Shown: positions 460 to 57,779, counted from the stretch's first letter. The stretch: DNA of 64,000 bases from an uncultured Candidatus Saccharibacteria bacterium (GCA_964531375.1 CAZHDO010000004.1:147-64146); one strand, 5' to 3'. Notes: generated by a model not told the origin, from the sequence alone. Made by a program: numbers and translations.

Positions 460-969
460 CTATTTGTAAATAGCTATTATTTGTCTAATTATTAGTTCTT
501 CTGGTTTAAGAAAATATCCAGTAAAATCAAACCAAACTTTCATAAAATCTTCTTTATCTATTTTTCTTTCGTGTCCAATTTCAGGATCTTGTAAATAAAT
601 ATTTTTATCATCAATTCCAAAGGCAACAGAATAATGACCATCTGCAACTTCTGAATCGTCATAATCACTTCTCCCTCTCGTAAACCAATCAACAATCACA
701 GGCACACCTTTTTTTAACCAGTTCTCAATATCTTTAAAATCACACTCGTTTTTAATTTCAGCTTTTAAACCGAAGAATTCTACCGCTTTTACGATCCCTT
801 TATCGTCAACACCAATCCCCTTAACCAAGCCTGCAATTTTGGCAATTTCTTTTTCTGTCTTGTCTATTCCGTAATAGTTTAAAACTATTTTTAAAGATGC
901 TGGGCCGCACATATCGGCGTGTAGTGTTTCTTGGAATGGTTTTACGTCTAACATTATTTTCTTTTTCAT
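460..969 (-). CDS. papain-fold cysteine peptidase-like protein (peptidase C39-like / BtrH_N-like)
   Basis: Putative catalytic Cys in HADMCGPASLKIVLNYYG and His in GHYSVAFGID, followed by an Asp-rich segment. 4-nt overlap (ATGA) with the upstream ATP-grasp gene. Confidence 0.55.
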   Translation of the reverse strand: MKKKIMLDVKPFQETLHADMCGPASLKIVLNYYGIDKTEKEIAKIAGLVKGIGVDDKGIVKAVEFFGLKAEIKNECDFKDIENWLKKGVPVIVDWFTRGRSDYDDSEVADGHYSVAFGIDDKNIYLQDPEIGHERKIDKEDFMKVWFDFTGYFLKPEELIIRQIIAIYK

Positions 970-2309
970 TTTTTTATATTATCCTGCTTAAAAATATGTG
1001 TCAATTTTTCATGAATATCTAACACTCTTTGTTTCGTTTTACCAAAAATAACACAAGAAAAAATACAATGATATGAATCAACCGCTACCAATACAACCCC
1101 CTCCTTTTTACCATTTATCGGAAAAAGTATTTGTTTAATTTTATTAAAGATATTTTCAGCTGATAGTATTTTTTCACCGTAGCAAAAAGAATCCGAAGAC
1201 AATGCTATTGTTTTACTAAACCAACGATCCCCAAATACGTGTCTAGTTAAATCATAAACATGAGTTCCACCTGTTCTTCTAACATTAGTCTCGATTGGAA
1301 ACGTTATCCCCTTTTTAGACATAATAAAATCTACATCCAAAAAACCTCGATAACCCAATTTAAAATAACGTTGACCAATCGCATTTCCAATTTTTCTTAT
1401 CTGTTTGTCTATGCTTGTTTTTACACAATTTTTGCCAATTACAATACCAAGAAAACATCCAAATTTATCAACAATCTGATTACATACATAAGTAATTTTA
1501 GAACATTTATCATCAATGAAAATCTCTAAAGACGGAGAGCTTTGGTCATTGTTAGATGAAGGAATAAACTCCTCAACAACAAAAGGATAAAAATTCCAAA
1601 TTGAATCGCTGTTTAATATTGACTTGATTTTACTTATCAACTCCTCTTCTGATGAATATTCGTCGCGGTGAACCATATAAACTCCCCAACCGCCCTCTCC
1701 TGAATATACTTTAATTATCGAGGATTTATTTTTTTTATACATCCAGACAACTGTATCTAAAACCTCTTTCTTGCCCCTACAGATAAAAAACTCTGGAACT
1801 GGTATAGATAAATCTTTCGTCTCGACTCTAAAACCCACCTTCGAACCGAGATAATCCACGAGCCACTGTGCGTTATTTAAAGGTTCCTGATCAACCTTAA
1901 ACAAAAGCTTTTGACCCCTTAATATATTAATTAATTTAGAAAAACTTTCAGTAAAACAATATGAAGAAATAATAATCTTTGGATTATCCCTGATAATACT
2001 AACAATCCTATCCATCAAACAACTATCGTTAATAATTGCATCCGATAAATTAATGTCCATATTCTCAGGAAACAAATTTACGATGTTTTCATACCCCAAA
2101 GACTTTGCATATAAAATAATAGATTTATCTACAGGAAAAGGTGTTATAACAATCTTATTGTCCCCTTCCCAAAACAAAAACCTACTAGACAAAAAATGCT
2201 CTTTGCGAATCTTAGATATTCTTTGAGCCTTGTCTTCGATACTGTTTATTATTGAGGAAAATGCTTCAGTATCATTGGCAATTATTATATTTTTAATTCT
2301 ATTTTTCAT
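966..2309 (-). CDS. ATP-grasp superfamily ligase (divergent)
   Basis: Central VVEEFIP motif and C-terminal RGFLDVDFIM...PIETNVRRTGGTH Mg/ATP-binding-like motif. Translationally coupled to the 460..969 gene. Confidence 0.5.
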   Translation of the reverse strand: MKNRIKNIIIANDTEAFSSIINSIEDKAQRISKIRKEHFLSSRFLFWEGDNKIVITPFPVDKSIILYAKSLGYENIVNLFPENMDINLSDAIINDSCLMDRIVSIIRDNPKIIISSYCFTESFSKLINILRGQKLLFKVDQEPLNNAQWLVDYLGSKVGFRVETKDLSIPVPEFFICRGKKEVLDTVVWMYKKNKSSIIKVYSGEGGWGVYMVHRDEYSSEEELISKIKSILNSDSIWNFYPFVVEEFIPSSNNDQSSPSLEIFIDDKCSKITYVCNQIVDKFGCFLGIVIGKNCVKTSIDKQIRKIGNAIGQRYFKLGYRGFLDVDFIMSKKGITFPIETNVRRTGGTHVYDLTRHVFGDRWFSKTIALSSDSFCYGEKILSAENIFNKIKQILFPINGKKEGVVLVAVDSYHCIFSCVIFGKTKQRVLDIHEKLTHIFKQDNIKK

Positions 2310-2389
2310 ACGTATTATAAGTTATAAAAAAGAGGTGGCTAAGCTTTCGATCAGTCCACCTCTCTCTTTTTTATCACAAAAAATAAACA

Positions 2390-3391
2390 CTAAAGACCAT
2401 AACGCTTTTGAGCAATTAACAAAATTTGTTCAACAAGATATTCAAATGAATATCCGAGGAAACTAGCCATCATGGTAAGAGTATTATTCAAACCATGTGA
2501 ATTAGGACCAATGCCTGGGTTACAATTTGTCTCTAAAAGAAATATTTTTCCATCATCCGACAACCTGTAATCCATCCTCGCATAATCACAGCAGTCAGTC
2601 ATTAAAAATGCGATACGAGTATATTCTTGAAAAAGACGTACTAACTCGTCTGACAAAATCGCTTTTTCCATACCCTCTTTACCACCGCCCCACTTATACT
2701 CATACGAACGTATCCTCTGATAAGGCGGAATGTTTTCACCAAAAACAAACTCAAGAGGTGGAAAAATTTTAATATCTGACCGATTACCGATACAACCAAC
2801 AGAAATTTCTCTTCCCTGGATAAATTCTTCAACCAATACAGGTTGACGATACAACTGCGCGACATACTTAACCCTTTTTGAAAGCTCCTCTATACCCGAA
2901 ACAACACTGTCATAGGTTATGCCAATACTTGCATCTTCATACATCGGCTTAACAATAAGAGGAAACCTCAAATCAACAGCAACAACGTCTTGCTCAGGGT
3001 AAAATACCTGTCGCCTTGGAGTTGGAACGCCATATGTACTCAAAATTAAATTCATTTTCCCCTTATCGCGGGTAAAAATGAAGTTACGAAGAGAAGCACC
3101 TGTAAAGGGAATTTCCAGTGTTTCTAGAATCGCGATATTAAACACCTCACTGGAATTTGACCCACCAAAACCCTCTGCAAGATTAAAAACAATATCAACT
3201 TTTCCTTTTATCGCAGACAGCTTATCAAACAAATCAGGGGTTGATTCCATTAATTCAGCAGAATGACCCTTACTCTGCAAAACGTCCCGAACCAAGGGGG
3301 CAATAATGGTTATCTCTTTTTCACAAATCAGATCTTCTTTATTACCCCTCTTTAATGTCGTAGAAAGATTATACAGCACGATAATGTTCAC
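2390..3391 (-). CDS. ATP-grasp ligase, D-Ala-D-Ala ligase-like
   Basis: LIVKPMYEDASIGI (Ddl-like ATP-binding strand), EEFIQGREISVG, LLETNCNPGIG (E-x-N catalytic loop). Confidence 0.6.
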   Translation of the reverse strand: MNIIVLYNLSTTLKRGNKEDLICEKEITIIAPLVRDVLQSKGHSAELMESTPDLFDKLSAIKGKVDIVFNLAEGFGGSNSSEVFNIAILETLEIPFTGASLRNFIFTRDKGKMNLILSTYGVPTPRRQVFYPEQDVVAVDLRFPLIVKPMYEDASIGITYDSVVSGIEELSKRVKYVAQLYRQPVLVEEFIQGREISVGCIGNRSDIKIFPPLEFVFGENIPPYQRIRSYEYKWGGGKEGMEKAILSDELVRLFQEYTRIAFLMTDCCDYARMDYRLSDDGKIFLLETNCNPGIGPNSHGLNNTLTMMASFLGYSFEYLVEQILLIAQKRYGL

Positions 3392-3523
3392 TGGTTGTTT
3401 CTCCTTTAAAATGTTGGCTTAATTAAACAAAATTACGAAATTGCTCAATTTACGAAGAACTTAACCTCCTAAACATCAATCTATTCGAAACAAGTACCTT
3501 AGTCAAATCAAAATTAATTATTT

Positions 3524-5836
3524 TTACTTAGAATATAATCCCCTCTGCAAAGCATAAAAATTAGTCTGAATAGCTTCTACACCACCCAGCATTTGTTCTG
3601 CGTCTGAGATGGCGTGATATTTAAGGTTAAGTAATATTGGTAGTTGTTCCATACCGAGCTCATCAACACCTTTCTCCTCATACTTATCAAGAACGAAGTT
3701 TAGAAACTCCTTTTGTTTGTCGTCCAAGTCATCCAAGATAGCCACCCTGTTTGAAGCAACTCTATCTTTTCTAGAAATTGGCTGTGTAGCGAACTGAACA
3801 TAAGCAAGAACATCAAAGATATCGCTATCTTCGGCGCCTATTAATTTCTGAAGAACTTCTAACTCATCTCTACCATAACCGAGACCTGCTATCTTCTCCA
3901 AAAAGATCTTCCTAGTTTTTGGATCTGACCAGACCTTTCGCAACTCCTCTTCGTTCCTAAAGAAGTCGGGCATAATGCCAAACATATTCTGCATAAATTC
4001 TTCGACAGAAATCGGTCTTCCGTCTGCGCTCCAAAAAGAAGTGGCTATCATGTGCTGGATCTCTCTCTCCTTTCCATCTCGTAATTTTATTTTTAATTTC
4101 TTCACTGGTTCTTCTAATCCTTCCTGCACTTCGGATGATACTGGTGGATATTCGACGGCGGGTTTCTCTGCTTTTGGTTTTAGTGGATCTTCTGTTATAT
4201 CTGCTATAGGCTCCCCATCCCATTCAGGATCAGCAAAGTGATGATATGCGTCCACAAAATCTATAATAGTGAAATACTCTTTTCCTTCAAATAACCTTGT
4301 CCCCCTTCCGATAATCTGTTTGAACTCAATCATAGAATTAACCGGGCGCATTAAAACAATGTTCCTAATATTTCTTGCATCTACTCCGGTAGAAAGTTTC
4401 TGGGAAGTGGTCAGTATTGTTGGTATTGTTTTTTCGCTATCCTGAAACTCCTTCAAAAATTGTTCACCTCTTGTCCCATCATTTGCTGTAACACGGACAC
4501 AATAAAAAGGATCCTTACTCGTCTTATTTTGGTTTACAAGATCCCGGACAGCAGCGGCGTGCTCTTGCGTAGCACAAAAGACGAGAGTCTTCTCCTTTTG
4601 GTTTATCTCTTGAAGCATGAGCTTAACCCTCTTTTCCTCGCGTGCCTTTATTTCAATAATTCTATTAAAGTCTTCTTCTTTGTAAATTTTACCCTCTTCA
4701 ACTTCGCCCTCTATGATCTGGTCATCGGAAGTATAAACATACTCATCAAGTGTGGTCTGTATTCTTTTAACCCTAAACGGAGTTAAAAAACCATCATTAA
4801 TTCCTTCTTTTAGGGAATAAGTGTAAACAGGTTCTCCAAAATATTTATATGTGTCAACATTGTCTTTTCTTTTTGGTGTAGCAGTCATACCAATCTGAAC
4901 AGCCGGAGAAAAGTATTCTAAAATTGCCCTCCAGTTTGATTCATCATTTGCACCACCTCTATGGCACTCATCCACAAAAATTATATCAAAAAAGTCTTTT
5001 GGGTATTCACCATAGTATGGCGTATTATTCGGCCCACTCATAAATGTCTGAAATATAGTAAAGAAAACACTTCCATTTGTAGGAACACTACCCTTTTTTC
5101 TAATGTCCAATGGATTTATACGAACTAGAGCATCTTCTGGAAACACCGAGAAACCATTAAAGGCTTGATTTGCTAAAATATTTCTATCAGCCAAGAAAAG
5201 AATCCTAGGCCTTCTCACACAGTCCCGCTGTAAACTCCACCTTGTCTGAAAAAGTTTCCATGCAATTTGAAAAGTTATATCTGTTTTGCCTGTACCAGTG
5301 GCGAGTGTGAGAAGTATGCGCTGTTTATTTTCTGCGATAGCTTCTAGTGCTTTATTAACAGCAAGCTCTTTGTAATATCTAACACCAGAATCCCCAAACC
5401 TATTCTCAATAGTAATATCATTAAACTTCTCTCTCCATTCGTTTTGATCTGTATGAGTTCTATTCCAAAGTTCTTCGGGTGTGGGAAATTTGTCCACGTA
5501 TTCTTCATCACCCGTTTTCATATTTATCTGGTAAATTTCTTTACCATTAGTTGCGTAAGTATATTCTATTCTTAATTTTTGGGCATAAACTTTGGCTTGT
5601 GTGACTCCTTCTGTTGAGGGGTCATCTAATTTCTTAGCCTCAATTACAGCCAACTTTTCTTTTTTGTAAGACAAAATATAATCAGCTATCTCTGGCTTAC
5701 CACGGCCTCCACCCATTTGGATCTTTCCATCTGTAATACGAAACTCACGGTAGACTTTTGAGTCTTCAACAACACCCCATCCGCTTTCCTTAAGCTTTGG
5801 ATCTACATATTCAGCTCTTGTTTCTGATTCATTCAT
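3524..5836 (-). CDS. hsdR: type I restriction enzyme R subunit (HsdR)
   Basis: N-terminal HSDR_N-like segment, Walker A LATGTGKT, DEAH-box FVDECHR, helicase C-terminal motifs. Same strand as hsdM and hsdS. Confidence 0.85.
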   Translation of the reverse strand: MNESETRAEYVDPKLKESGWGVVEDSKVYREFRITDGKIQMGGGRGKPEIADYILSYKKEKLAVIEAKKLDDPSTEGVTQAKVYAQKLRIEYTYATNGKEIYQINMKTGDEEYVDKFPTPEELWNRTHTDQNEWREKFNDITIENRFGDSGVRYYKELAVNKALEAIAENKQRILLTLATGTGKTDITFQIAWKLFQTRWSLQRDCVRRPRILFLADRNILANQAFNGFSVFPEDALVRINPLDIRKKGSVPTNGSVFFTIFQTFMSGPNNTPYYGEYPKDFFDIIFVDECHRGGANDESNWRAILEYFSPAVQIGMTATPKRKDNVDTYKYFGEPVYTYSLKEGINDGFLTPFRVKRIQTTLDEYVYTSDDQIIEGEVEEGKIYKEEDFNRIIEIKAREEKRVKLMLQEINQKEKTLVFCATQEHAAAVRDLVNQNKTSKDPFYCVRVTANDGTRGEQFLKEFQDSEKTIPTILTTSQKLSTGVDARNIRNIVLMRPVNSMIEFKQIIGRGTRLFEGKEYFTIIDFVDAYHHFADPEWDGEPIADITEDPLKPKAEKPAVEYPPVSSEVQEGLEEPVKKLKIKLRDGKEREIQHMIATSFWSADGRPISVEEFMQNMFGIMPDFFRNEEELRKVWSDPKTRKIFLEKIAGLGYGRDELEVLQKLIGAEDSDIFDVLAYVQFATQPISRKDRVASNRVAILDDLDDKQKEFLNFVLDKYEEKGVDELGMEQLPILLNLKYHAISDAEQMLGGVEAIQTNFYALQRGLYSK

Positions 5837-5872
5837 AGATTTATTTTATTGTATTTGTTTTAAGAAATATTT

Positions 5873-6415
5873 TTATTTCTTTTGTAATGAATTTGGTATC
5901 TGCTCAAGAATATTCAATAATAGACCAACTGCATTTTCTACACGTTTTAAATCACAGCTTTTGTCCCTTGGTTTACTAAAATGGAAAGTATTTCTAACGT
6001 CATTAATCTCTAAAATCTCTTCCGCCAATTTTTCTTGAATAAGTTTCTTATCTCTAAAAAATACTATAAGTTCTTTTAAACCAATTTGATGTTCCTTCTT
6101 TTCAGCTATTTCTTGAACAGCAATCACTACTGGAAAATCCAATTTTTCTTTATGCCTGTATCCTGGCAACAATTGACTTGGATATTTATATTCAAAATAT
6201 TCAATTTTCTCACCGCGTTCTTTAAAAAAATACAAAAGCACAGCTTCTATTATAGAGATAACATATAAAATTATTACCCTATACACCTCCTCTTGGTATA
6301 GCTTATTTTGTTCATTTTCTTTAGCCTGTTTTGTGTAAAGTACAAAAATAAACTCCATAGAGTCTTCTAAGATTTTACGAAGTCCGTCGTCTTTAATAAA
6401 CTCAAGGTCAGACAT
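5873..6415 (-). CDS. hypothetical protein embedded in the type I R-M operon (candidate Abi/HEPN-like accessory)
   Basis: ORF between hsdR and hsdS. Contains NDVRNTFHF (R-x3-H), which is one residue short of the HEPN R-x4-6-H motif. Confidence 0.4.
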   Translation of the reverse strand: MSDLEFIKDDGLRKILEDSMEFIFVLYTKQAKENEQNKLYQEEVYRVIILYVISIIEAVLLYFFKERGEKIEYFEYKYPSQLLPGYRHKEKLDFPVVIAVQEIAEKKEHQIGLKELIVFFRDKKLIQEKLAEEILEINDVRNTFHFSKPRDKSCDLKRVENAVGLLLNILEQIPNSLQKK

Positions 6416-6421
6416 ATTTTT

Positions 6422-6595
6422 TTAATCAGACTTCTTTTGAGTCATCTTCAATAACTTCGAAAGGGACGGCAGACCTTCCTTTTTTAAAACAGTATGAAGC
6501 TGGGTATCTGATCTATAGCCCAAATCAACACCATATTTTTTCTCTATAGTTTTAACTAAAGTATCTCCCCTCTTTTTAGATATTAGCTTACTCAT
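6422..6595 (-). CDS. small hypothetical protein (57 aa), Lys-rich
   Basis: Hand-translated ORF MSKLISKKRGDTLVKTIEKKYGVDLGYRSDTQLHTVLKKEGLPSLSKLLKMTQKKSD in the hsdS-hsdR gap; not in the provided track. Confidence 0.3.
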   Translation of the reverse strand: MSKLISKKRGDTLVKTIEKKYGVDLGYRSDTQLHTVLKKEGLPSLSKLLKMTQKKSD

Positions 6596-6614
6596 AAATC
6601 AAGTTTAACATATT

Positions 6615-7706
6615 TTAAATTTCACCGCCAAAAGCTTTTTTAAGGACAGATTTTTTGAGCTCATCTAGATCAGCAAGTTTTTTGCTGTAAATTTCTTCTA
6701 GTTTTTTGGTTTCAACAGAGAGATCTTCTAATTTTTTAACAATTTCCTTTTGTTCAGAAATAGATTTTGGAAAAATGATTTCAATTGTTTGAAGTTCAGA
6801 TTTCACAAGACTTGGTATAGTTGTTCCTCTATTCATACTTTTGAAATCAATACCTAAGCATAAATAATAGACAAACCTTTTATCGATATCATTTTCATTT
6901 TTTGGGTAAAAACCAAATGCTGTATCTACATTCCAAAAACGTTCATCAATATAAATTGGTTTACTGATATTTCCCTTTCTCCCGATAATTGTTGTCCCTG
7001 CTTCACAAATGAAATCAGTTGCATAACCCATTACATTTCCAGCACTACCCAAAATTTTGTATTCACCCTTTTCAGATAATACTGCTTGTTGATTTTTACC
7101 GTTCCTAATTTCAATCATTTCCCCCAACTCCCTTTCCTCCCAACTATCCCCCGGATTCGCAAAAATACTCTGTAAATAAGATTCAAAAAGTTCGTGGGAG
7201 TTTTTTATATTTTTCTCTGCGTTTTCTTTCGCCTTAGCTGTCTTCTCAAAAACTTCGTCTAGGATTTTCACGATTCGGTTTTGTTCTGGGAGAGGTGGAA
7301 GGGGGATTTCGAAATTCATCATCTCTTTCATGTTCGCTCGTGGCATCCTTGCCCCAGTGCAAGTATCATTTATTTTTTCCACTATCTCGCCAGAGGTTAT
7401 CCAGTAGAATAAGTATTTCTTATCCAAAGCATTATCAGTTTTTATAGGAAATATTTCAGTTGAGCAATGACCGTCAAAATTCGGCAATAAGACCTTGTTA
7501 AGATAAGGTCTAAGTCTTCCATATAGTAGATACTCTTTATTAAATTTAAAAGTCACACTTTTTACCTTACGTGGTTTTATTGAGCCTATAAATTTACCTG
7601 TATTAGACTCAATGTCTTCCATCCCAATATATGGCAAAGACTCACCGTTATTGGGAGATTTATCAAAACTAGAAACATCGCCAAGTTTTTTTATTTGCCA
7701 AATCAT
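6615..7706 (-). CDS. hsdS: type I restriction-modification specificity subunit (HsdS)
   Basis: Conserved central repeat motif LPPLPEQNRIVKILDEVF. Two target-recognition-domain architecture. Confidence 0.85.
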   Translation of the reverse strand: MIWQIKKLGDVSSFDKSPNNGESLPYIGMEDIESNTGKFIGSIKPRKVKSVTFKFNKEYLLYGRLRPYLNKVLLPNFDGHCSTEIFPIKTDNALDKKYLFYWITSGEIVEKINDTCTGARMPRANMKEMMNFEIPLPPLPEQNRIVKILDEVFEKTAKAKENAEKNIKNSHELFESYLQSIFANPGDSWEERELGEMIEIRNGKNQQAVLSEKGEYKILGSAGNVMGYATDFICEAGTTIIGRKGNISKPIYIDERFWNVDTAFGFYPKNENDIDKRFVYYLCLGIDFKSMNRGTTIPSLVKSELQTIEIIFPKSISEQKEIVKKLEDLSVETKKLEEIYSKKLADLDELKKSVLKKAFGGEI

Positions 7707-7710
7707 GATA

Positions 7711-8295
7711 TTAAAAGAATTTTTGAAGTAATGGGGATAAAACCTGCCAAACGGTTAAAGAATTTGCAGCGACCTCTACCATCTTGGAAATACCCTGCAT
7801 TAGATTTTTAACAACATTCTTTTTACGATTCTCTGGTTTTTGGAACAATTCTTTAGTAATAATATCCAGACTTTCAAGGATTTCATCTTGTTGGTCTTTT
7901 ATCAAGCAGGGTTCAGTCAAGATTTTTTCAGAAAAACTTTTTATATTATCTGCCAATTCTTTTTGGGATGAAGAATATAGGGAATCAATAGTCTGGTTTA
8001 AATTTTGAATATTACCAGAATTCAAAATACCAATTTGGCTATTACTTATGGCTATGTGGTTGTTGTTTATTGTTCCGCCAGAGACCAATACTGGTCGCTT
8101 TACTGGATATCTTGGACCCATACTTATCCCGAACATAGAATCAATACTATCCATGGAGTAGTTCATCTCTTCTCTTAACATCTGAATATTTTTTTCATTC
8201 ATCTCTCGTACTGTTGCGTAGCAGTTCAGACATAGTAGCACCTTTTGATCACCTATCTCATACATTGCGTTGTTACTGCATTGGTAACATTTCAT
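7711..8295 (-). CDS. hypothetical zinc-ribbon protein inserted between hsdM and hsdS
   Basis: N-terminal C4 ribbon CYQCSN...CLNCYA then a predicted helical region. 4-nt overlap with the hsdM stop and 5 nt from the hsdS start. Confidence 0.45.
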   Translation of the reverse strand: MKCYQCSNNAMYEIGDQKVLLCLNCYATVREMNEKNIQMLREEMNYSMDSIDSMFGISMGPRYPVKRPVLVSGGTINNNHIAISNSQIGILNSGNIQNLNQTIDSLYSSSQKELADNIKSFSEKILTEPCLIKDQQDEILESLDIITKELFQKPENRKKNVVKNLMQGISKMVEVAANSLTVWQVLSPLLQKFF

Positions 8296-9764
8296 AAATA
8301 TTTCTGAATATCCTTTAAAATTTTTCCACCCTCGAAGTCTAGTTCTTCTATCTCTTTCAAAATATCCTTCGGTTCTCTCAACACAGCTCCCCCTCCTTTC
8401 TTTGGATTCTTCACAGAAAGGTCAAAAGTTTCCTGGTTAATACCTTTCATATCCACACTCCAGGAGTTTTCTGAATCAGCTTTGGTCTTTTGCAGCTCAA
8501 CGAATTCCGCAAGATCCTTTTCATTAAGAGGATTGGTCTTTCCTAGGTTTCTATCAAGATTAAGCTGGTAATACCAGATCTTTTTCGTAGGAGATCCTTT
8601 TTCAAAAAACAAGACGACGGTCTTTACACCAGCGCCTTGAAATGTACCCCCGGGGAGATCAAGTATTGTGTGTAAGTTACAGGATTCAAGGAGAAGTTTC
8701 CTTAAAGAGACTGAGGCATTATCGGTGTTTGAAAGAAAGGTATTCTTAATAACAATACCAGCTCGTCCCCCTGCTTTGAGAATCTTTATAAAATGCTGTA
8801 AAAAGAGGAATGCAGTTTCTCCTGTCTTAATGGGGAAGTTTTGCTGAACTTCCGCTCTCTCCTTACCACCAAAAGGTGGGTTGGCCAGCGCGACAGAATA
8901 GCGGTCTTTCTCTTGAATGTCGGAGAGGTTTTCTGAGAGGGTATTTGTATGAATAATATGGGGAGCCTCTATGCCGTGGAGGATCATATTCATTATTCCA
9001 ATGATGTAGGCCAAGGACTTCTTCTCCTTTCCGTAGAAGGTACTCTTCTGAAGAGTCTCCATGTCTTTGGTAGAGAGGTTCTTATTCTCTTTCAAATAAT
9101 CAAATGCTTCTACCAAGAAGCCGGCAGAGCCCACGGCGCCATCATAGATCTTATCTCCAATCTTAGGGGCTACAACTTTGATTATGGTTTTTATAAGAGG
9201 GCGTGGCGTGTAATACTCCCCACCGTTTCTGCCAGCATTACCCATGTTCTTGATCTTCACCTCATAGAGATGAGAGAGTTCGTGTTTTTCGGCATGAGAG
9301 CGGAAGCGCATACCGTCTATGATATTTATTATCTCTCTTAGGGCGTATCCGCTTTGAATCCTGTTCTTTATCTCACTGAAAATTTCCCCGATCTTATATT
9401 CAATAGTGTCCGGACTCACTGCGTCGGTCTTAAACTTTTTTAGATATTGAAATAGACCGTTGTCTTTTGGGTCTAAGCGATTAACAAATTCCAATAGGTC
9501 GTCTCCTGTTAAGGCCTTGTTGTGGTCTAGTTTACCATCCTTGCCCTTTGGAGAGGCCCAAGTGTCCCAGTGATACTTAGGAGAGATAATATGCGTATAT
9601 TCCTTACCAGAAAGCTTAGCGGCTAAAGCCCTGTCCTTTTCGAGGTCATCCAAATATCTCAAGAATAAAACCCAGGAAGTTTGCTCAACATAATCAAGCT
9701 CACTGGAGGCACCAGCATCCTTATGGAGAATGTCGTCTATATTTTTGAATGATTGTTCGAACAT
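8292..9764 (-). CDS. hsdM: type I R-M N6-adenine DNA methyltransferase (HsdM)
   Basis: NPPFG catalytic motif (LANPPFGGKERAE); AdoMet-binding region DGAVGSAGFL; HsdM N-domain. Confidence 0.9.
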   Translation of the reverse strand: MFEQSFKNIDDILHKDAGASSELDYVEQTSWVLFLRYLDDLEKDRALAAKLSGKEYTHIISPKYHWDTWASPKGKDGKLDHNKALTGDDLLEFVNRLDPKDNGLFQYLKKFKTDAVSPDTIEYKIGEIFSEIKNRIQSGYALREIINIIDGMRFRSHAEKHELSHLYEVKIKNMGNAGRNGGEYYTPRPLIKTIIKVVAPKIGDKIYDGAVGSAGFLVEAFDYLKENKNLSTKDMETLQKSTFYGKEKKSLAYIIGIMNMILHGIEAPHIIHTNTLSENLSDIQEKDRYSVALANPPFGGKERAEVQQNFPIKTGETAFLFLQHFIKILKAGGRAGIVIKNTFLSNTDNASVSLRKLLLESCNLHTILDLPGGTFQGAGVKTVVLFFEKGSPTKKIWYYQLNLDRNLGKTNPLNEKDLAEFVELQKTKADSENSWSVDMKGINQETFDLSVKNPKKGGGAVLREPKDILKEIEELDFEGGKILKDIQKYL

Positions 9765-9824: not shown

Positions 9825-11924
9825 TTACTCACCTCCCCCTTGATTCTTTTCAAGCGCTTGTCTAACAAGACTTATGACATCTTCTATTTGTTCAGAAGAA
9901 GAAAGTTTAACCTGAACATCACCATTGCCCCATGTTCCAACACCTGTAACATCTCGACAAATACCCTTAGGATCATTAATCTCTGCGAAAGTTATGTTGA
10001 GCGATAAGGCGAGACACTGTCTCTGAGGAACAATATCTACAAAATTTGTCGTGGTCTTATAAGCAATGTAGCGACGCTTCACCTCCTCTCTAACAGAAGA
10101 GTCTAAATTTAAAATTTCTTTACGGATCTCATAAAACAAATCTAAAAGTGGACCTTGCAGATATTCACTATGTACTTCTAAATTATAAACACGTTCTCGC
10201 TTGTTTTCTTTCTTCTCCTTCTTGTATTTTTGTAGAACCTCAGTAGCCACATCAGGGAATGACCAAACATTTATTGCTACCTTTGTAATATTTTGAGCTC
10301 GCTTCTTGATCTCCTGTTCGTCCCAGTGATCCAATTCTGCGAGACTACGATTTAACATTATTGGGCTATTAGCAAAACCCCCCTTCATGTCTCTTTTCTC
10401 TAAGAATTTCTTATCACTCAATTCTGAATTGTATCCGGTAAGTGTGAGATTTCCGATCGTATGCAAATACTGATCCTGAATTAGCTTCCAATTATCACCC
10501 AATTCTTTTTGCCATGCTTCTGACAGATTCTCGTTCTGGGGTAAAATATGTTCTATTGTGTAACTCTCGACTGAAACTATTTCCTTTCTATCGTGATTTT
10601 CTAGTTTTCTTAATAGATAGTTCCTGTTTCGAAGATTGTAAATATCCTTAATAACAAACTCGCGACGGAACTCTTCGTTGTCTGGAAAACGCTGATATGA
10701 ATCCTTATTCAAAAGAGCGACCTTAACACTGTCTACATAATTCTGCTTATCTATTTCTCTCGAGAGTATGGCAAAGGTCTTATTGAGAGAGTTAGTGGGA
10801 ATACCACATATTGATCGGCGGAATACATAACTCTCGACCATCTTCAATATTTCTACAAAACCCTCTCGACTTAGCACATTAGAATAAAAATCATGATAGA
10901 CGGAAAGCAAAAAAGGATAAGAAACATCAACTTTTAGAGAATCGATATCGCCCAAAATATTATTTATTTCTTTATCCTCCTCTTTTAAGAAAGATAGCTT
11001 AATAAAATATTTCGAATACATAAAAATATCGGCAACAACCTCCTGAATTGTTTTCCTTCCGGTGTCTTTCTGTACATAATTCTTGAAGCTACCATAAACT
11101 TCTTTTATATTGGGAATAAGACCAGTCTTTAAAGTAAGATAATCGCGCATGAAATTATCAAACAGATCAGTGTATTCAGTATTCCCAAATCCCTGCTCCA
11201 TTGGATACCAATATTGACGGTAAAGATTATCTTGCTCCTCTTTCGGGAGAGACATCAAAACGAAGTTTCTTATAAGATCGGCTTGAGATAAGTCTAGACC
11301 AGTAGAATTAAGACTCTCAAAGATTAATTGTGGATTATCATGTTGGTGATCGAGCGAAATATCAACGATAAGAAGTTTCTGCAATCCTTGATAAATGGCT
11401 GTGGCAGAGATATTGGCTGTTTTAATCTTGTTCTCAAACCAGTTATAATTCTCGGCAATTCGGATGGAGCTTTTATCAAGTAGCCCTTTTCTTTCAATTA
11501 GACGGGTAAATGATTCTTTGTCTGTCTGAGTCAATAAAAGTTTATACCTATCTTCACCCTCTTCTTGTCCATTAAATAAATAATAATTTTCAATCTTAGT
11601 GGCTATGCTCTGGTGTTCCGGTATTTCCGACTCTCTTAATGTTTTAGAAAGAGCCGTAAGGAGTAATGAAATTGTAGTTAGGCGCTGTTGTCCGTCTATA
11701 ACCAAGAGCTGTGGCACACTCGCTACTTGATATAATCCCTTTTCAATATATACAATAGATCCAACAAAATGACCGCTCACGGTTGGTTCTTGAACTCTTA
11801 AGATATCTTTCCATAACTGTTCACACTGTTTAATGGTCCAGCTATATGGTCGCTGGTATATAGGTATAACGAACTGTGTCGGTTTTTGAAGAAATTTAAG
11901 TAAGTTTGTTTCTACTGCTTTCAT
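9825..11924 (-). CDS. DUF262/DUF1524 (GmrSD-like) nuclease, putative type IV restriction or defence protein
   Basis: N-terminal DUF262 signature IPIYQRPYSW and DGQQRLTT; C-terminal His-Me/HNH-like SYTIEHILPQN. Confidence 0.7.
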   Translation of the reverse strand: MKAVETNLLKFLQKPTQFVIPIYQRPYSWTIKQCEQLWKDILRVQEPTVSGHFVGSIVYIEKGLYQVASVPQLLVIDGQQRLTTISLLLTALSKTLRESEIPEHQSIATKIENYYLFNGQEEGEDRYKLLLTQTDKESFTRLIERKGLLDKSSIRIAENYNWFENKIKTANISATAIYQGLQKLLIVDISLDHQHDNPQLIFESLNSTGLDLSQADLIRNFVLMSLPKEEQDNLYRQYWYPMEQGFGNTEYTDLFDNFMRDYLTLKTGLIPNIKEVYGSFKNYVQKDTGRKTIQEVVADIFMYSKYFIKLSFLKEEDKEINNILGDIDSLKVDVSYPFLLSVYHDFYSNVLSREGFVEILKMVESYVFRRSICGIPTNSLNKTFAILSREIDKQNYVDSVKVALLNKDSYQRFPDNEEFRREFVIKDIYNLRNRNYLLRKLENHDRKEIVSVESYTIEHILPQNENLSEAWQKELGDNWKLIQDQYLHTIGNLTLTGYNSELSDKKFLEKRDMKGGFANSPIMLNRSLAELDHWDEQEIKKRAQNITKVAINVWSFPDVATEVLQKYKKEKKENKRERVYNLEVHSEYLQGPLLDLFYEIRKEILNLDSSVREEVKRRYIAYKTTTNFVDIVPQRQCLALSLNITFAEINDPKGICRDVTGVGTWGNGDVQVKLSSSEQIEDVISLVRQALEKNQGGGE

Positions 11925-15873: not shown

Positions 15874-17148
15874 TTATATTCCAAACCAAGATCTAAGGCG
15901 AAACCACCAGATATTCTTATTTACAACCGACTTTGATGGCCTATTGGTAGACGTGGCAAATTCATCAGTAGAGGTCACCCCTACTGATATTAAAGGGTTG
16001 AGCTTAAGAGTATCTTTAATTATTTCTTTTGGTGATACTTTAAGTTGGGTCTCAATTTTTTGGATTGGCATTTCTGGAGTTTCAGTCTTTTTTTCAACCT
16101 TAGGAGTCTCTGTGGAGGCTTTGTTGTTAATTTCATTTTGTTTATCAATCCTATTCTGTAGGTCTTGAATTTGATTCATAAGAACAGAGATTTGAGCTGC
16201 GACATCATTTTTCTTTTGTGTTGGTTGTATGGGCTGTACTTGTAAAGGTTGTATTTGTGGAGATTCTATCTGCGGGGGTGTTATCTGCATTGAACTTGTC
16301 AGAGGGTTAGTGGTTTTAGTTTTTAGCCCCCCTGATCTTTGCGCAGAAAGACTCTTTAGCTGAGGAATTGGGCTCTTGATTGTCCTTATAAACGAGGACA
16401 TCATTGATGGTGGGTCAAAAGAATTAAACCAATACTCTAGATTTTCTTTCGGGGATACAATTTCTGGGCGACCAAAAGGTTTGCCATAATACACAATATC
16501 ACCTTCGCTTAATTTTAATGATTTAATCTTTTGATTGTAATTAATTTTTTGAATTCTAACAGAATCAGAGTCACTTTGGTTTGTAAGAGGAAATAAAAAA
16601 TCATCGCTATTATAAATTGTCCATGCCCAACTATCTACATATTTTCCAATCAAATTTTCACACCAACCAAAATCCTCATACAGGGTGTTCTTCACAGAAA
16701 CCAAGGAGGTTCTATCTCCGCTTAATACCTGTTTGGTGCCCCACCCTGAAACATTCTTTGCAGAAAAACAAAGGGTTTTTAAATTTTCTACTGTAGGATT
16801 TTGAAGAAAAGCATCAATAATATTCAGCGAGCCAATCTCAATTTTAACCATATCAACAAACTCACTCTGTGGAATGTTTTCGTCAATGATTAAGGTTGCT
16901 GGTTTGAGTAGTGAGGCATTTCGTGAATTAGAGTCAAAAATAATTTCTTTTTCATCAGCTTTAGAGGTAGAAAAAAGGTCATTAACAGTATCTACCGCGT
17001 TAGACCACAACCCTGCGTGTACGGAAGAGGGGCATTGTAAAAATAAAAGGGTCGTAATGATAAGAAATGATAATTTATTTAGTTTGTTTTTCATATTTTT
17101 TATTCTTCCAAACAAAAAGCCCACCACATGAGTTAGTGACAAAGTCAC
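15874..17148 (-). CDS. secreted hypothetical protein with P/Q-rich linker
   Basis: Signal-peptide-like N-terminus; PQIESPQIQPLQVQPIQPTQ low-complexity linker. Confidence 0.4.
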   Translation of the reverse strand: MTLSLTHVVGFLFGRIKNMKNKLNKLSFLIITTLLFLQCPSSVHAGLWSNAVDTVNDLFSTSKADEKEIIFDSNSRNASLLKPATLIIDENIPQSEFVDMVKIEIGSLNIIDAFLQNPTVENLKTLCFSAKNVSGWGTKQVLSGDRTSLVSVKNTLYEDFGWCENLIGKYVDSWAWTIYNSDDFLFPLTNQSDSDSVRIQKINYNQKIKSLKLSEGDIVYYGKPFGRPEIVSPKENLEYWFNSFDPPSMMSSFIRTIKSPIPQLKSLSAQRSGGLKTKTTNPLTSSMQITPPQIESPQIQPLQVQPIQPTQKKNDVAAQISVLMNQIQDLQNRIDKQNEINNKASTETPKVEKKTETPEMPIQKIETQLKVSPKEIIKDTLKLNPLISVGVTSTDEFATSTNRPSKSVVNKNIWWFRLRSWFGI

Positions 17149-17369
17149 TCATACAAGTTTCCCTGTACGGCAGAACATGCAACCCCATATGATGGGTTCT
17201 TTATGCATGTTCTGACTCTTTTCACCATGCCTGACACTGTGCCAAGTTTAGGCTACTTATTATTAAATTGTCTGCCTCTCTAAAATACCACAAAAACAAG
17301 AAAATATCCAAAAAAATAAACAGTAACCCTGATATTGGATTACTGTTTATTTTTTCAATTTATTATATT

Positions 17370-55832: not shown

Positions 55833-56089
55833 AATTAAAATTATATTACATTCAATCGATTCTTAAAACCGTTTGATTACTTAATAAAATTAGGAACAAA
55901 GAGTGGGATTCGGTCACGGATATTTTTTTGCAGAAAAATTCCTCGAAGTCCGTCAGTTGCGACGGACACCTGTAGACGGCCCACACAGCTCCTTTTCTTG
56001 CAGAAAGGGACCCGCTTCCGTCTTTCGAAGCCCACCTTCTCGCGCAAAATACAGTCATAAAACGCTTTCTCATTTTATTCATTATTTTA

Positions 56090-56176
56090 CGGAGAGAGTG
56101 GGATTCGAACCCACGGTTCCGATAAAGGAACGACAGTTTAGTAAACTGTTGATATAAACCACTCATCCATCTCTCC
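56090..56176 (-). tRNA. type II (long variable arm) tRNA, Ser-like; anticodon reads ACU in my fold (unusual)
   Basis: Minus strand: acceptor GGAGAGA/TCTCTCC; D-stem GATG/TATC; anticodon stem ACAGT/ACTGT; loop TTACTAA; long variable arm CGTTCCTTTATCGGAACCG; T-arm GTGGG-TTCGAAT-CCCAC. Confidence 0.7.
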
Positions 56177-56249
56177 AGATGATTTAGACAATATACAATA
56201 TATTAAAAAATAATTCTAGAAAAAACGAGGGTAAATAATTTAGTAAAAT

Positions 56250-57090: not shown

Positions 57091-57365
57091 TAATTTCGGA
57101 GCCGGATGGAATTTCTCTCCTTACAGGAGCAGTATCACAGATATTTTTCTGCAGAAAAATTCTTCGACCCCAACTCACTCGTCTTCACTCGCTCCGTCTT
57201 TGAAATGCTACCTGTCGTCGCATTTCAACCCCGATGGATTTTCTCTACGTCCTACGGACTATAAAAAATGCTCATCGGGGCTTCGAATCCATCTCGCAAG
57301 ACATTTAGTATGTCTTGCTCGGCTCCATATTTAAAAAAACCGCAATATCGCAGTTTTTTTAAATA

Positions 57366-57452
57366 CGGAGCCGGATGGATTCGAACCATCGAGGGCTTTT
57401 ACACCCTGCCTCTTTAGCAAAGAGGTACGTTAGACCACTCTGACACGGCTCC
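57366..57452 (-). tRNA. tRNA-Ser(GCU), type II
   Basis: Minus strand: acceptor GGAGCCG/CGGCTCC; anticodon stem CCTCT/AGAGG; loop TTGCTAA (anticodon GCT); long variable arm; T-arm GATGG-TTCGAAT-CCATC. Confidence 0.8.
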
Positions 57453-57779
57453 ACTTTATTTGATTATTAACTTAAAACAGCATTCTGGCAAAGAGGTACG
57501 TTAGGTCACGGATATTTTTCTGCAGAAAAATTCCGCTATCCTTACAGGATCAGTACACCTTTTGGACTTTTTCATTCGCCTTGCTCTGAAAAATTCTCAA
57601 GAAGGTTCTTCGCCTTTCGCTTTCGCGGCTCAGCCCGACTCGTTCACCATTACTCTCGCCCTTAATTTGCTTCAAGTATTCGCAAATTAACACTCTGACA
57701 CGGCTCCACTTTATTTGGTTATTTTCCTCAAAAACCTTGACTAGTATAGACTAAAACGTCCTTATCTACAAGCTTATGG

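What the first reader, a model, noticed from the sequence alone, without database searches (positions are those of the whole stretch)
3524..9764. Type I R-M operon (hsdM, unknown, hsdS, small ORF, unknown, hsdR) with unknown genes embedded between subunits
hsdM (NPPFG), hsdS (LPPLPEQNRIV) and hsdR (HSDR_N, LATGTGKT, DECHR) are on one strand. A 194-aa zinc-ribbon protein is wedged between hsdM and hsdS, with a 4-nt overlap with the hsdM stop. A 57-aa ORF and a 180-aa protein with an R-x3-H segment sit between hsdS and hsdR. Genes inserted inside hsd operons are typically R-M-coupled abortive-infection or anticodon-nuclease modules such as PrrC, RloC or Abi. These three do not resemble those by eye, so they may be new R-M-associated effectors or regulators.
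Basis: partly seen in the sequence, partly recalled or inferred. Interest (0 to 1): 0.55.

Follow-up and report, generated by a model that had tools for sequence, protein, structure and literature searches.

The report
Restriction operon carrying embedded HEPN toxin cassette
A complete Type I restriction-modification operon from an uncultured candidate-phyla-radiation (CPR) bacterium has picked up two unrelated passenger modules, a mobile two-gene cassette encoding a predicted HEPN RNase with a tiny, very conserved partner, and a zinc-ribbon protein coupled to the methylase gene; this is a new example of the known habit of defence genes nesting inside restriction operons.

Summary
On the minus strand lie hsdM (9764-8292), ORF194 (8295-7711), hsdS (7706-6615), ORF57 (6595-6422), ORF180 (6415-5873) and hsdR (5836-3524). 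HsdR is an EcoAI/FtnUII-family (Type IB) enzyme.

All three inserts are real genes. Each has large families, almost all in CPR/Patescibacteria, with saturated synonymous sites and low non-synonymous change.

ORF57 and ORF180 form one autonomous cassette. ORF57 precedes ORF180 in every locus examined. The cassette carries its own extended -10-like element 6 nt before the ORF57 ATG. It occurs between hsdS and hsdR in 9 operons, beside Type III and MmeI-type systems, beside SLFN-like helicases, and between housekeeping genes.

ORF180 has a HEPN fold. Its family-wide invariant residues are E57 and R141-N142-x2-H145, so it is probably a metal-independent RNase. ORF57 is basic, far more conserved than ORF180, and stays intact where ORF180 has decayed, which fits an antitoxin-like role.

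ORF194 overlaps the hsdM stop in most loci. It resembles only the untested PADLOC candidate PDC-M14B, and its function is open.

No biochemistry was tested. This is a new family of a known kind, of moderate interest.

The parts
9825..11924 (-). GmrSD-like Type IV restriction gene (GmrSD_N + GmrSD_C + DUF5655). It lies 60 nt upstream of hsdM on the same strand and is context for the same defence island.
   Evidence: Pfam GmrSD_N 4.7e-39, GmrSD_C 1.6e-25, DUF5655 4e-13. PADLOC Orf5 3.2e-185 and HEC-06 3.6e-73.
8292..9764 (-). hsdM, the Type I methyltransferase subunit (490 aa).
   Evidence: N6_Mtase 5.5e-62 and HsdM_N. PADLOC MTase_I 1.7e-154.
7711..8295 (-). ORF194. It has an N-terminal 4-Cys zinc ribbon (C3, C6, C22, C25; about 8289-8221), a long helix, a conserved Asn/Gly-rich middle and a helical C-terminal domain. 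Its start overlaps the hsdM stop by 4 nt.
   Evidence: alignment A2. 18 of 33 family members hit PADLOC PDC-M14B, best E 2.3e-6, over the C-terminal part only. It lies immediately 3' of hsdM in 8 loci (window, L001, L046-L050, L054), and its start codon abuts or overlaps the hsdM stop in five of them (window, L047-L050). The AF2 model is poor, pLDDT 59.
6615..7706 (-). hsdS, the specificity subunit (363 aa, two target-recognition domains).
   Evidence: Methylase_S 1.5e-38 with 2 stretches. PADLOC Specificity_I 5.2e-49.
6602..6610 (-). Extended -10-like element TGTTAAACT, 6 nt upstream of the ORF57 ATG. It is the predicted cassette promoter and would give a leaderless ORF57 mRNA.
   Evidence: TGnTAnnnT occurs with exactly a 6-nt spacer in 23 of 31 distinct cassette loci, and with 7-9 nt in 5 more. 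The expected frequency is 0.002 per position. Promoter function is inferred.
6422..6595 (-). ORF57, a basic 57-aa protein (pI 10) and the obligate upstream partner of ORF180. Predicted antitoxin or regulator.
   Evidence: Found directly upstream of ORF180 in every locus. 256 clusters, all small proteins. pN is lower than for ORF180 in 28 of the 29 loci compared (0.06-0.14 vs 0.22-0.33 in the 13 closest). It stays intact where ORF180 is broken.
5873..6415 (-). ORF180, a HEPN-fold protein and predicted metal-independent RNase effector. The RNTFH motif is encoded at 5995-5981.
   Evidence: AF2 pLDDT 86.6, pTM 0.80. The Foldseek top PDB hits are HEPN toxins. The only confident BFVD hit is a HEPN protein. 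Only E57, R141, N142 and H145 are invariant across about 20-35%-identical relatives.
3524..5836 (-). hsdR, the Type IB restriction subunit (770 aa).
   Evidence: NCBIfam EcoAI/FtnUII family R subunit, 1e-244, 814 bits. ResIII, Helicase_C and EcoEI_R_C.

Best explanation
The region is an intact Type IB (EcoAI-family) R-M operon. Two of its intergenic junctions have been used as landing sites for unrelated defence-type cargo.

Module 1 (about 6610-5873) is a self-contained, horizontally mobile two-gene cassette with its own extended -10 promoter. ORF180 is a HEPN-fold protein. Its invariant E57 and R141-N142-x2-H145 form a HEPN-type active site, so it most likely cleaves RNA without a metal ion and acts as a growth-arresting toxin or abortive-infection effector. 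ORF57 is a very basic, ultra-conserved 57-aa protein translated first from a probably leaderless mRNA. It most likely keeps ORF180 inactive, in an antitoxin-like way, until a trigger such as infection or loss of expression releases it. Sitting in the same hsdS-hsdR position as prrC, the cassette would serve as a second line of defence behind restriction, but it does not need the R-M system to function.

Module 2 is ORF194, a zinc-ribbon and helical protein co-translated with HsdM. It is a distant relative of the untested candidate PDC-M14B and is most likely an accessory sensor or regulator of embedded defence functions.

Shown here: gene structure, conservation, linkage, contexts, fold and motif. 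Inferred: RNase activity, toxicity, neutralisation by ORF57, promoter function, and any role for ORF194.
For: - The R-M operon is complete and Type IB.
- ORF57 lies immediately upstream of ORF180 in all loci.
- The cassette has about 34 distinct contexts. Nine are in the Type IB hsdS-hsdR slot (window, L004, L014, L016, L017, L022, L025, L030, L060). Two are with Type III systems (L035, L038). Two are with MmeI-type systems (L013, L064). Three are beside SLFN-like helicase+S24 genes (L018, L034, L042). One is on an integrative element. The rest lie between housekeeping genes.
- The hsdS-hsdR junction is empty in the related operon L001.
- A conserved TGnTAnnnT lies 6 nt before the ATG in 23 of 31 loci.
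- HEPN fold: about 25 of the top 30 PDB Foldseek hits are HEPN proteins such as HepT and the Aphanizomenon HEPN toxin, with probability up to 1.0 and TM up to 0.6. A phage MAE_28990-like HEPN protein matches with probability 0.89.
- Only E57, R141, N142 and H145 are invariant in the divergent alignment. Divergent members give sub-threshold hits to DUF4145 and HEPN.
- The HEPN motif rules and the habit of R-M embedding are described in PMC3710099.
- Decay is asymmetric. ORF180 is truncated or frameshifted in L039, L060 and L064-67 while ORF57 is intact, and the reverse was never seen.
- 'Guilt by embedding' is an established pattern (10.1101/2024.01.29.577857).
- ORF194: PDC-M14B hits and hsdM coupling.
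Against: - Foldseek E-values are weak (0.05-0.6), and no sequence profile method links ORF180 significantly to any HEPN family.
- The motif is Rx3H, one residue shorter than the canonical Rx4-6H.
- ORF57 is more conserved than its presumed toxin, which is atypical for antitoxins. It has no recognisable fold or family.
- No structure prediction of ORF57 or of the complex could be run.
- ORF194 has only a partial, weak similarity to an uncharacterised candidate, and its AF2 model is unreliable.
- Nothing was tested experimentally.
Confidence: 0.6

Rival explanations
1. The ORF57-ORF180 cassette is functionally coupled to restriction enzymes in the way PrrC is. It would be held latent by the R-M complex and switched on when a phage anti-restriction factor disables that complex, which would explain why it sits between hsdS and hsdR.
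For: - It occupies the same gene position as prrC and has a HEPN-type effector.
- 13 of about 34 distinct loci lie inside or directly beside R-M systems of three different types.
- PrrC-like and other HEPN genes are known to be embedded in R-M operons (PMC3710099).
Against: - About 60% of cassette loci have no R-M gene within 5-8 kb, and some lie between tRNA synthetase or ribosomal genes.
- The cassette has its own promoter-like element.
- It associates with three unrelated R-M architectures, which argues against a specific protein-protein latch.
- It has no ABC-ATPase regulatory domain like that of PrrC.
Confidence: 0.2
2. ORF180 is a non-catalytic HEPN-like protein, for example a ligand- or nucleic-acid-binding regulator, and ORF57 is a small DNA-binding protein. 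The pair would be a selfish stabilisation or regulatory module without nuclease activity.
For: - Several HEPN families are non-catalytic (PMC3710099).
- The Rx3H spacing is non-canonical.
- ORF57 is highly basic, with pI 10.
Against: - The only four family-wide invariant residues are exactly the acidic residue, R, the polar residue after R, and H, as expected of a catalytic HEPN site.
- ORF180 decays repeatedly while ORF57 is retained, which suggests that ORF180 is costly.
Confidence: 0.15
3. ORF194 is not a separate defence gene but a dedicated accessory of this R-M lineage. It could be a controller-type regulator or an HsdM-binding assembly or specificity factor.
For: - ORF194 lies immediately after hsdM in 8 loci and overlaps or abuts the hsdM stop in 5 of them (window, L047-L050).
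- A zinc ribbon could bind nucleic acid.
- In the window and in L046 it is followed directly by hsdS.
Against: - It occurs without any hsd gene in L002, L051 and L052.
- Sister operons of the same HsdM/HsdR lineage (70-80% identity) lack it and carry other cargo in that slot.
- Its C-terminal part resembles an embedded-defence candidate.
Confidence: 0.2
4. The inserted ORFs are chance reading frames in long intergenic spacers.
For: None of the three matches any curated family.
Against: - Each has tens to hundreds of homologous clusters with conserved length.
- Synonymous sites are saturated while pN/pS is 0.26-0.39.
- The AF2 model of ORF180 is confident.
Confidence: 0.01

Closest known systems
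EcoAI / EcoEI family Type IB restriction-modification systems
   Same: - The HsdR subunit matches the NCBIfam equivalog above its cutoff.
- HsdM and HsdS have the standard domains.
- The gene order is M-S-R on one strand.
   Different: The operon is interrupted by three extra genes, and it comes from an uncultured CPR bacterium.
PrrC (EcoprrI-embedded anticodon nuclease) and RloC
   Same: - Both have a HEPN-type nuclease domain.
- Both are encoded inside a Type I operon, between hsdS and hsdR.
- The expected role is a suicidal back-up to restriction (PMC3710099).
   Different: - ORF180 is only 180 aa and has no ABC-ATPase/NTPase domain.
- It has a separate 57-aa partner.
- Its motif is Rx3H.
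- The cassette is frequently found away from any R-M system.
HepT-MntA (HEPN-MNT) type VII toxin-antitoxin systems
   Same: - These give the best structural matches for ORF180 (6m6w, 7bxo, 5yep, 7ae*).
- Both are two-gene modules with a small HEPN toxin.
   Different: - The partner is a 57-aa basic protein, not a nucleotidyltransferase.
- ORF180 carries an inserted beta-hairpin (residues about 72-105).
- There is no sequence-level similarity.
DUF4145 and MAE_28990-like HEPN families
   Same: - Four divergent relatives give sub-threshold DUF4145 hits and one gives a PF05168 HEPN hit.
- The best viral structural match is a MAE_28990/18760-like HEPN protein.
- DUF4145 is typically linked to R-M systems.
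   Different: - No match reaches a curated threshold.
- The window protein itself has no hit.
- The spacing of the R...H motif differs.
PADLOC candidate PDC-M14 (component B), and the 'guilt-by-embedding' class of Payne et al. 2024
   Same: - The C-terminal ~70 residues of the window ORF194 (113-182) match a PDC-M14B model, and 18 of 33 family members hit PDC-M14B models.
- ORF194 is embedded in a Type I R-M operon, like the genes from which the PDCs were derived.
   Different: - The match is weak (E 2e-4 to 2e-6) and partial.
- No PDC-M14A partner was found.
- PDC-M14 itself is uncharacterised, and no paper mentions it.

Membership tests
Type IB R-M (EcoAI/EcoEI family) | The HsdR subunit matches the family equivalog model above its curated cutoff and has the EcoEI_R_C tail. 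| tested here: met
   NF046051, 814.5 bits against a cutoff of 550, full length 1-769. EcoEI_R_C 1.2e-21.
Type IB R-M (EcoAI/EcoEI family) | HsdM has an N6-adenine methyltransferase domain with the NPPF motif, HsdS has two target-recognition domains, and the genes are co-directional. | tested here: met
HEPN superfamily (ORF180) | An alpha-helical up-down bundle fold shared with solved HEPN domains. | tested here: met
HEPN superfamily (ORF180) | A conserved Rx4-6H motif before the last helix. | tested here: not met
   The motif sits at the right place, just before the last helix, and is invariant. Its spacing is R-x3-H (R141-N-T-F-H145), one residue shorter than the published range.
HEPN superfamily (ORF180) | A polar residue (N/D/H) directly after the R, and a conserved acidic residue upstream. 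| tested here: met
   N142 and E57 are invariant in the alignment of 45 divergent relatives. The criterion comes from PMC3710099.
HEPN superfamily (ORF180) | A significant sequence-profile match to a curated HEPN-clan family. | tested here: not met
   The window protein has no Pfam hit. Only sub-threshold hits were found in relatives: DUF4145 in 4 of 45 (E 0.009) and HEPN in 1 of 45 (E 0.034). PDB profile searches returned no HEPN entry (A1: five unrelated hits, best E 0.1; A3: none).
HEPN superfamily (ORF180) | Metal-independent RNase activity that depends on R and H. | not testable with these tools
   This needs biochemistry.
PrrC / RloC anticodon nucleases | An N-terminal ABC-type NTPase domain fused to the HEPN nuclease. 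| tested here: not met
   ORF180 is 180 aa, has no P-loop, and has no PADLOC, Pfam or NCBIfam PrrC/RloC hit.
HEPN-MNT (type VII TA) | An adjacent minimal nucleotidyltransferase antitoxin. | tested here: not met
   The partner is a 57-aa protein with no NTase domain, and it is conserved as such in all loci.
Toxin-antitoxin module (generic, two-gene) | An obligate gene pair with a small upstream neutraliser, patchy and mobile distribution, and tolerance of toxin loss but not of antitoxin loss. | tested here: met
   Linkage is 100%. The contexts are varied. ORF180 is broken in 3 lineages with ORF57 intact, and the reverse was never seen. Toxicity and neutralisation themselves were not tested.
PADLOC PDC-M14 (ORF194) | A match to the PDC-M14B model. 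| tested here: inconclusive
   For the window protein, E 2.1e-4 over residues 113-182 only. 18 of 33 relatives hit, best E 2.3e-6.
PADLOC PDC-M14 (ORF194) | An adjacent PDC-M14A component. | tested here: not met
   No PDC-M14A hit was listed for the seven window proteins (hsdM, hsdS and the GmrSD-like gene show only their best 25 families), and none was found among nine genes flanking ORF194 in other loci.

The most novel reading that the evidence does not exclude
ORF57-ORF180 is a previously undescribed, CPR-wide immune module. Its 57-aa protein is not a simple antitoxin but the sensing element. Its extreme conservation (75-93% identity where the nuclease is 47-62%, and 72-85% where the nuclease is only 29-37%) would reflect binding to an invariant cellular or restriction-associated target. 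Disturbance of that target during infection would release an atypical Rx3H HEPN RNase. The module would then be a general 'guard' that has been recruited repeatedly next to Type I, Type III and Type IIG restriction enzymes.
Probability: 0.15. Interest if true: 0.7.

Novelty: new member of a known kind. Interest (0 to 1): 0.42.

Why it matters
CPR/Patescibacteria are tiny episymbionts with small genomes, and few defence systems other than R-M have been recognised in them. This locus gives a compact CPR-specific HEPN cassette and an hsdM-coupled protein family, and neither is represented in Pfam, NCBIfam or PHROGs (in PADLOC only ORF194 has a weak, partial match, to PDC-M14B).

It also shows that one CPR Type IB operon lineage acts as a two-slot carrier for interchangeable defence cargo. 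Cargo seen in sister operons includes Abi_C, Swt1-like HEPN, Shedu, RloB/AAA_21, RelA/SpoT, Panacea-type TA modules and Fic.

If ORF180 is an active RNase, the Rx3H site would extend the known range of HEPN active-site geometry. The very strong constraint on the 57-aa partner is unexplained and could be tested. The general phenomenon of defence genes embedded in R-M operons is already well described, so the advance is incremental.

Tried and rejected
- **Family scans.** Pfam, NCBIfam, PADLOC and PHROGs scans of the three ORFs found nothing above threshold. The one exception was a weak PDC-M14B hit for ORF194.
- **PDB sequence-profile searches.** Searches with A1, A2, A3 and A4 gave only noise, such as CARD or designed repeat proteins.
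- **hhalign of the ORF180 profile.** Comparisons with the Abi_C and Swt1-like HEPN proteins from sister operons were not significant.
- **Local hmmsearch.** A search with the A3 profile against all ORFs of the fetched loci found no link to other HEPN-like cargo.
- **ORF194 structure.** The AF2 model was poor (pLDDT 59, pTM 0.27), and the PDB fold search with it was meaningless.
- **PDC-M14.** A literature search for 'PDC-M14' returned nothing, and a search for a PDC-M14A partner next to ORF194 found none.
- **ORF57 conservation as an RNA or DNA element.** Rejected, because synonymous sites are saturated (pS about 0.8) while pN is 0.06-0.14 in the 13 closest loci.
- **ORF57 as the toxin.** Rejected, because ORF57 persists intact where ORF180 is deleted or truncated.
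- **The inserts as obligate R-M subunits.** Rejected for the cassette and unlikely for ORF194, because both occur in loci without R-M genes.

Full report
**1. The observation**

One search shows six co-directional ORFs on the minus strand, exactly as described:
- hsdM, 9764-8292
- a 194-aa ORF, 8295-7711, overlapping the hsdM stop by 4 nt
- hsdS, 7706-6615
- a 57-aa ORF, 6595-6422
- a 180-aa ORF, 6415-5873
- hsdR, 5836-3524

The remaining gaps are 4, 19, 6 and 36 nt. The consensus scan finds no convincing terminator between the genes.

Domain searches confirm the three Hsd subunits. HsdR is placed in the EcoAI/FtnUII family at 814 bits against a cutoff of 550, so this is a Type IB system.

A GmrSD-like Type IV restriction gene lies 60 nt upstream on the same strand (11924-9825). 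It has GmrSD_N, GmrSD_C and DUF5655 domains and PADLOC hits to Orf5 and HEC-06. The whole stretch from 11924 to 3524 is therefore a small defence island.

**2. The inserted ORFs are real genes**

None of the three matches a curated family. All the same, ORF194 has 53 homologous 90%-identity clusters, ORF180 has 156 and ORF57 has 256. Where the homologues are named, nearly all come from CPR/Patescibacteria lineages: Parcubacteria, Saccharibacteria, Berkelbacteria, Shapirobacteria, Gracilibacteria, Peribacteria and Uhrbacteria.

Codon-level comparison shows saturated synonymous divergence (pS about 0.8). Measured against the window copy, non-synonymous divergence is 0.06-0.37 for ORF57 (0.06-0.14 in the 13 closest loci) and 0.22-0.51 for ORF180 (0.22-0.33 in those loci). 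The median pN/pS for ORF194 is 0.29.

**3. ORF57 and ORF180 form one autonomous cassette**

Across the cassette loci scanned by tblastn (L004-L045, about 30 of them distinct), an ORF57 homologue lies immediately upstream of the ORF180 homologue in every case. Further loci reached through ORF57 itself show the same pairing.

ORF57 is much the more conserved of the two. It is 75-93% identical where ORF180 is 47-62% identical. In L034-L038 it is still 72-85% identical where ORF180 has fallen to 29-37%.

Sequence upstream and downstream of the pair is context-specific, with one exception. A TGnTAnnnT element (an extended -10 consensus) ends exactly 6 nt before the ORF57 ATG in 23 of 31 distinct loci, and 7-9 nt before it in five more. 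The chance expectation is 0.002 per position. In the window this element is TGTTAAACT at 6610-6602, inside the 19-nt gap between hsdS and ORF57.

I infer that the cassette brings its own promoter and that ORF57 is translated from a leaderless, or nearly leaderless, mRNA.

**4. Where the cassette sits**

After removing duplicates there are about 34 contexts:
- **Type IB operons, between hsdS and hsdR (9 loci):** window, L004, L014, L016, L017, L022, L025, L030, and L060, where it is followed by a Fic gene.
- **Type III systems (2 loci):** between mod and res in L035, and after a mod-res pair in L038.
- **MmeI-type Type IIG enzymes (2 loci):** directly after the enzyme gene in L013 and L064.
- **SLFN-like helicase fused to an S24 peptidase (3 loci):** directly after that gene in L018, L034 and L042.
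- **An integrative element (1 locus):** L057, with a serine recombinase and a Rep gene.
- **Housekeeping neighbours (the remaining 17 or so):** ArgRS/IleRS, AspRS, PolA, an aminoacyl-tRNA synthetase, NusB/S2 and others.

A closely related operon, L001 (HsdR 71% identical), has hsdS and hsdR directly adjacent.

The cassette is therefore cargo rather than a core R-M component. It is strongly enriched next to restriction systems but does not depend on them.

**5. What ORF180 is**

The AF2 model is confident, with pLDDT 86.6 and pTM 0.80. It shows long helices with an inserted beta-hairpin at residues 72-105.

Foldseek against the PDB returns HEPN proteins for about 25 of the top 30 hits. These include the HepT toxins 6m6w, 7bxo and 5yep, the Aphanizomenon HEPN toxin 7ae*, YutE, AF_0298 and HI0074. 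Probabilities reach 1.0 and target-normalised TM is about 0.6, but E-values are only 0.05-0.6. In the viral structure library the single confident match is a MAE_28990/18760-like HEPN protein, at probability 0.89.

A profile search of 1.84 billion representative proteins finds 141 relatives; the full-length ones are stand-alone proteins of about 165-250 aa and the rest are shorter fragments. In an alignment of 45 of the most divergent relatives (18-35% identity), only four positions are invariant: E57, R141, N142 and H145.

These four positions are what the HEPN literature defines as the active site. That site consists of an R...H motif before the last helix, a polar residue after the R, and an upstream acidic residue. 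In PrrC, RloC and RNase L it supports metal-independent RNA cleavage (PMC3710099).

Two caveats apply:
- The spacing is Rx3H, one residue shorter than the published Rx4-6H.
- Sequence-only methods give at best sub-threshold links: DUF4145 in 4 relatives and PF05168 in 1. PDB profile searches and hhalign against neighbouring Abi_C and Swt1-like proteins found nothing.

I put HEPN-superfamily membership at about 0.8. RNase activity is an inference from the motif.

**6. What ORF57 is**

ORF57 is a 57-aa stand-alone protein with pI 10 and 14 Lys/Arg residues. All homologues are equally small, and the longer database entries are mis-called starts. No family or solved structure matches it.

Three independent lineages have lost ORF180 while keeping ORF57 intact:
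- L039 has a frameshifted ORF180.
- L060 has ORF180 truncated to 108 aa, while sister contigs carry 179 aa.
- L064-67 retain only the first 30 or so codons, fused to an hsdS tail.

The reverse was never seen. This asymmetry is what a toxin and neutraliser pair predicts, and it rules out ORF57 as the toxin.

Why a presumed antitoxin should be far more constrained than its toxin is unexplained. It may also bind DNA, RNA or some conserved host component.

**7. ORF194**

The family is 53-79% identical to the window copy. It shares an N-terminal CxxC...CxxC zinc ribbon, a long helix, a strongly conserved Asn/Gly-rich segment (GGTVNNNHIAINNSQIGILNTGNI...) and a helical C-terminal domain.

The AF2 model is unreliable, with pLDDT 59 and the conserved middle segment below 50. 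The fold search on it is uninformative.

The only lead is PADLOC's candidate PDC-M14B. Eighteen of 33 family members match it (best E 2.3e-6), and for the window protein the match covers only residues 113-182. PDCs were defined as genes embedded in BREX, DISARM or Type I R-M systems and are mostly untested (10.1101/2024.01.29.577857). No paper mentions PDC-M14, and no PDC-M14A partner was found.

In context, ORF194 lies immediately 3' of hsdM in the window, L001, L046-L050 and L054, with its start abutting or overlapping the hsdM stop in five of these (window, L047-L050). It occurs with no hsd gene nearby in L002, L051 and L052.

It is often followed by a variable gene:
- membrane proteins (L001, L050)
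- a RelA/SpoT-domain protein (L047)
- an AbiJ-C-like protein (L055)
- a protein with an RNRIVH motif (L053)

In the window and in L046, hsdS follows it directly.

My best guess, with low confidence, is a sensor or regulator-type accessory that travels with hsdM. The rival reading is an R-M-specific controller or assembly factor.

**8. The wider pattern**

Operons of the same HsdM/HsdR lineage (66-80% identity) carry other cargo in the same two slots.
- **M-S slot:** Abi_C (L004), Swt1-like HEPN (L014), Shedu SduA_C (L016, L060), AAA_21 + RloB (L022), an HATPase_c protein (L030) and RelA/SpoT (L047).
- **S-R slot:** Panacea-type TA modules (L048, L050), or Fic together with the cassette (L060).

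This is the 'defence genes embedded in defence systems' phenomenon described by Anantharaman et al. 2013 and Payne et al. 2024.

**9. Verdict**

There are two modules rather than three unknowns. One is an autonomous HEPN toxin-type cassette that belongs to the same superfamily as the PrrC, RloC and Abi nucleases. The other is an hsdM-coupled protein of unknown function.

The kind of system is known. The families are new to Pfam, NCBIfam and PHROGs, and PADLOC offers only a weak, partial PDC-M14B match for ORF194; all are essentially CPR-specific. Interest is moderate. The features most worth following up are the Rx3H site, the ultra-conserved leaderless 57-aa partner, and the cassette's repeated recruitment next to three classes of restriction enzyme.

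Noticed in passing
window 56089-56177 (-) and 57365-57453 (-): There are two class II tRNA-Ser genes about 1.2 kb apart. One has the normal GCU anticodon. The other has an ACU anticodon (A34; anticodon loop UUACUAA), which is unusual for bacteria because AGY codons are normally read by GCU alone.
   Followed up: partly
window 17135-17254 (-): A LOOT RNA (Rfam RF03000) matches at 70.6 bits against a gathering score of 46.4, covering the full-length model.
   Followed up: no
window 9825-11924 (-): A GmrSD-like Type IV restriction gene with an extra C-terminal DUF5655 domain lies directly upstream of hsdM. It matches PADLOC Orf5 (3e-185) and the experimentally validated HEC-06 class, so the R-M operon is part of a larger defence island.
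   Followed up: partly
L018 5173-7284, L034 5977-7707, L042 3706-5730: In three unrelated CPR contigs the ORF57-ORF180 cassette sits directly after a protein that fuses a Schlafen-group-3-like helicase to a LexA-type S24 peptidase. This fusion may itself be a defence gene or damage sensor.
   Followed up: no
L064-L067 about 2288-8734: This is a decaying locus. It has an intact MmeI-type enzyme, an intact ORF57, only the first 30 or so codons of ORF180 fused to an hsdS tail, a Fic gene, and an hsdR broken into three pieces. It looks like a snapshot of a Type I operon being replaced or eroded while ORF57 is retained.
   Followed up: partly
L053 797-1759; L047 2690-3724: Genes directly downstream of ORF194 homologues include a 320-aa protein with an RNRIVH (Rx4H, HEPN-like) motif and no family hit, and a 344-aa RelA/SpoT-domain protein (8e-18). 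This suggests that ORF194 pairs with interchangeable effectors.
   Followed up: partly
window 460-3391 (-): Immediately downstream of hsdR are a 333-aa ORF (2390-3391) and a 447-aa ORF (966-2309), followed by a small 169-aa protein. By eye, from the translations, the first looks like a D-Ala-D-Ala-ligase/ATP-grasp protein and the second like an ATP-grasp protein. They were not examined further.
   Followed up: no
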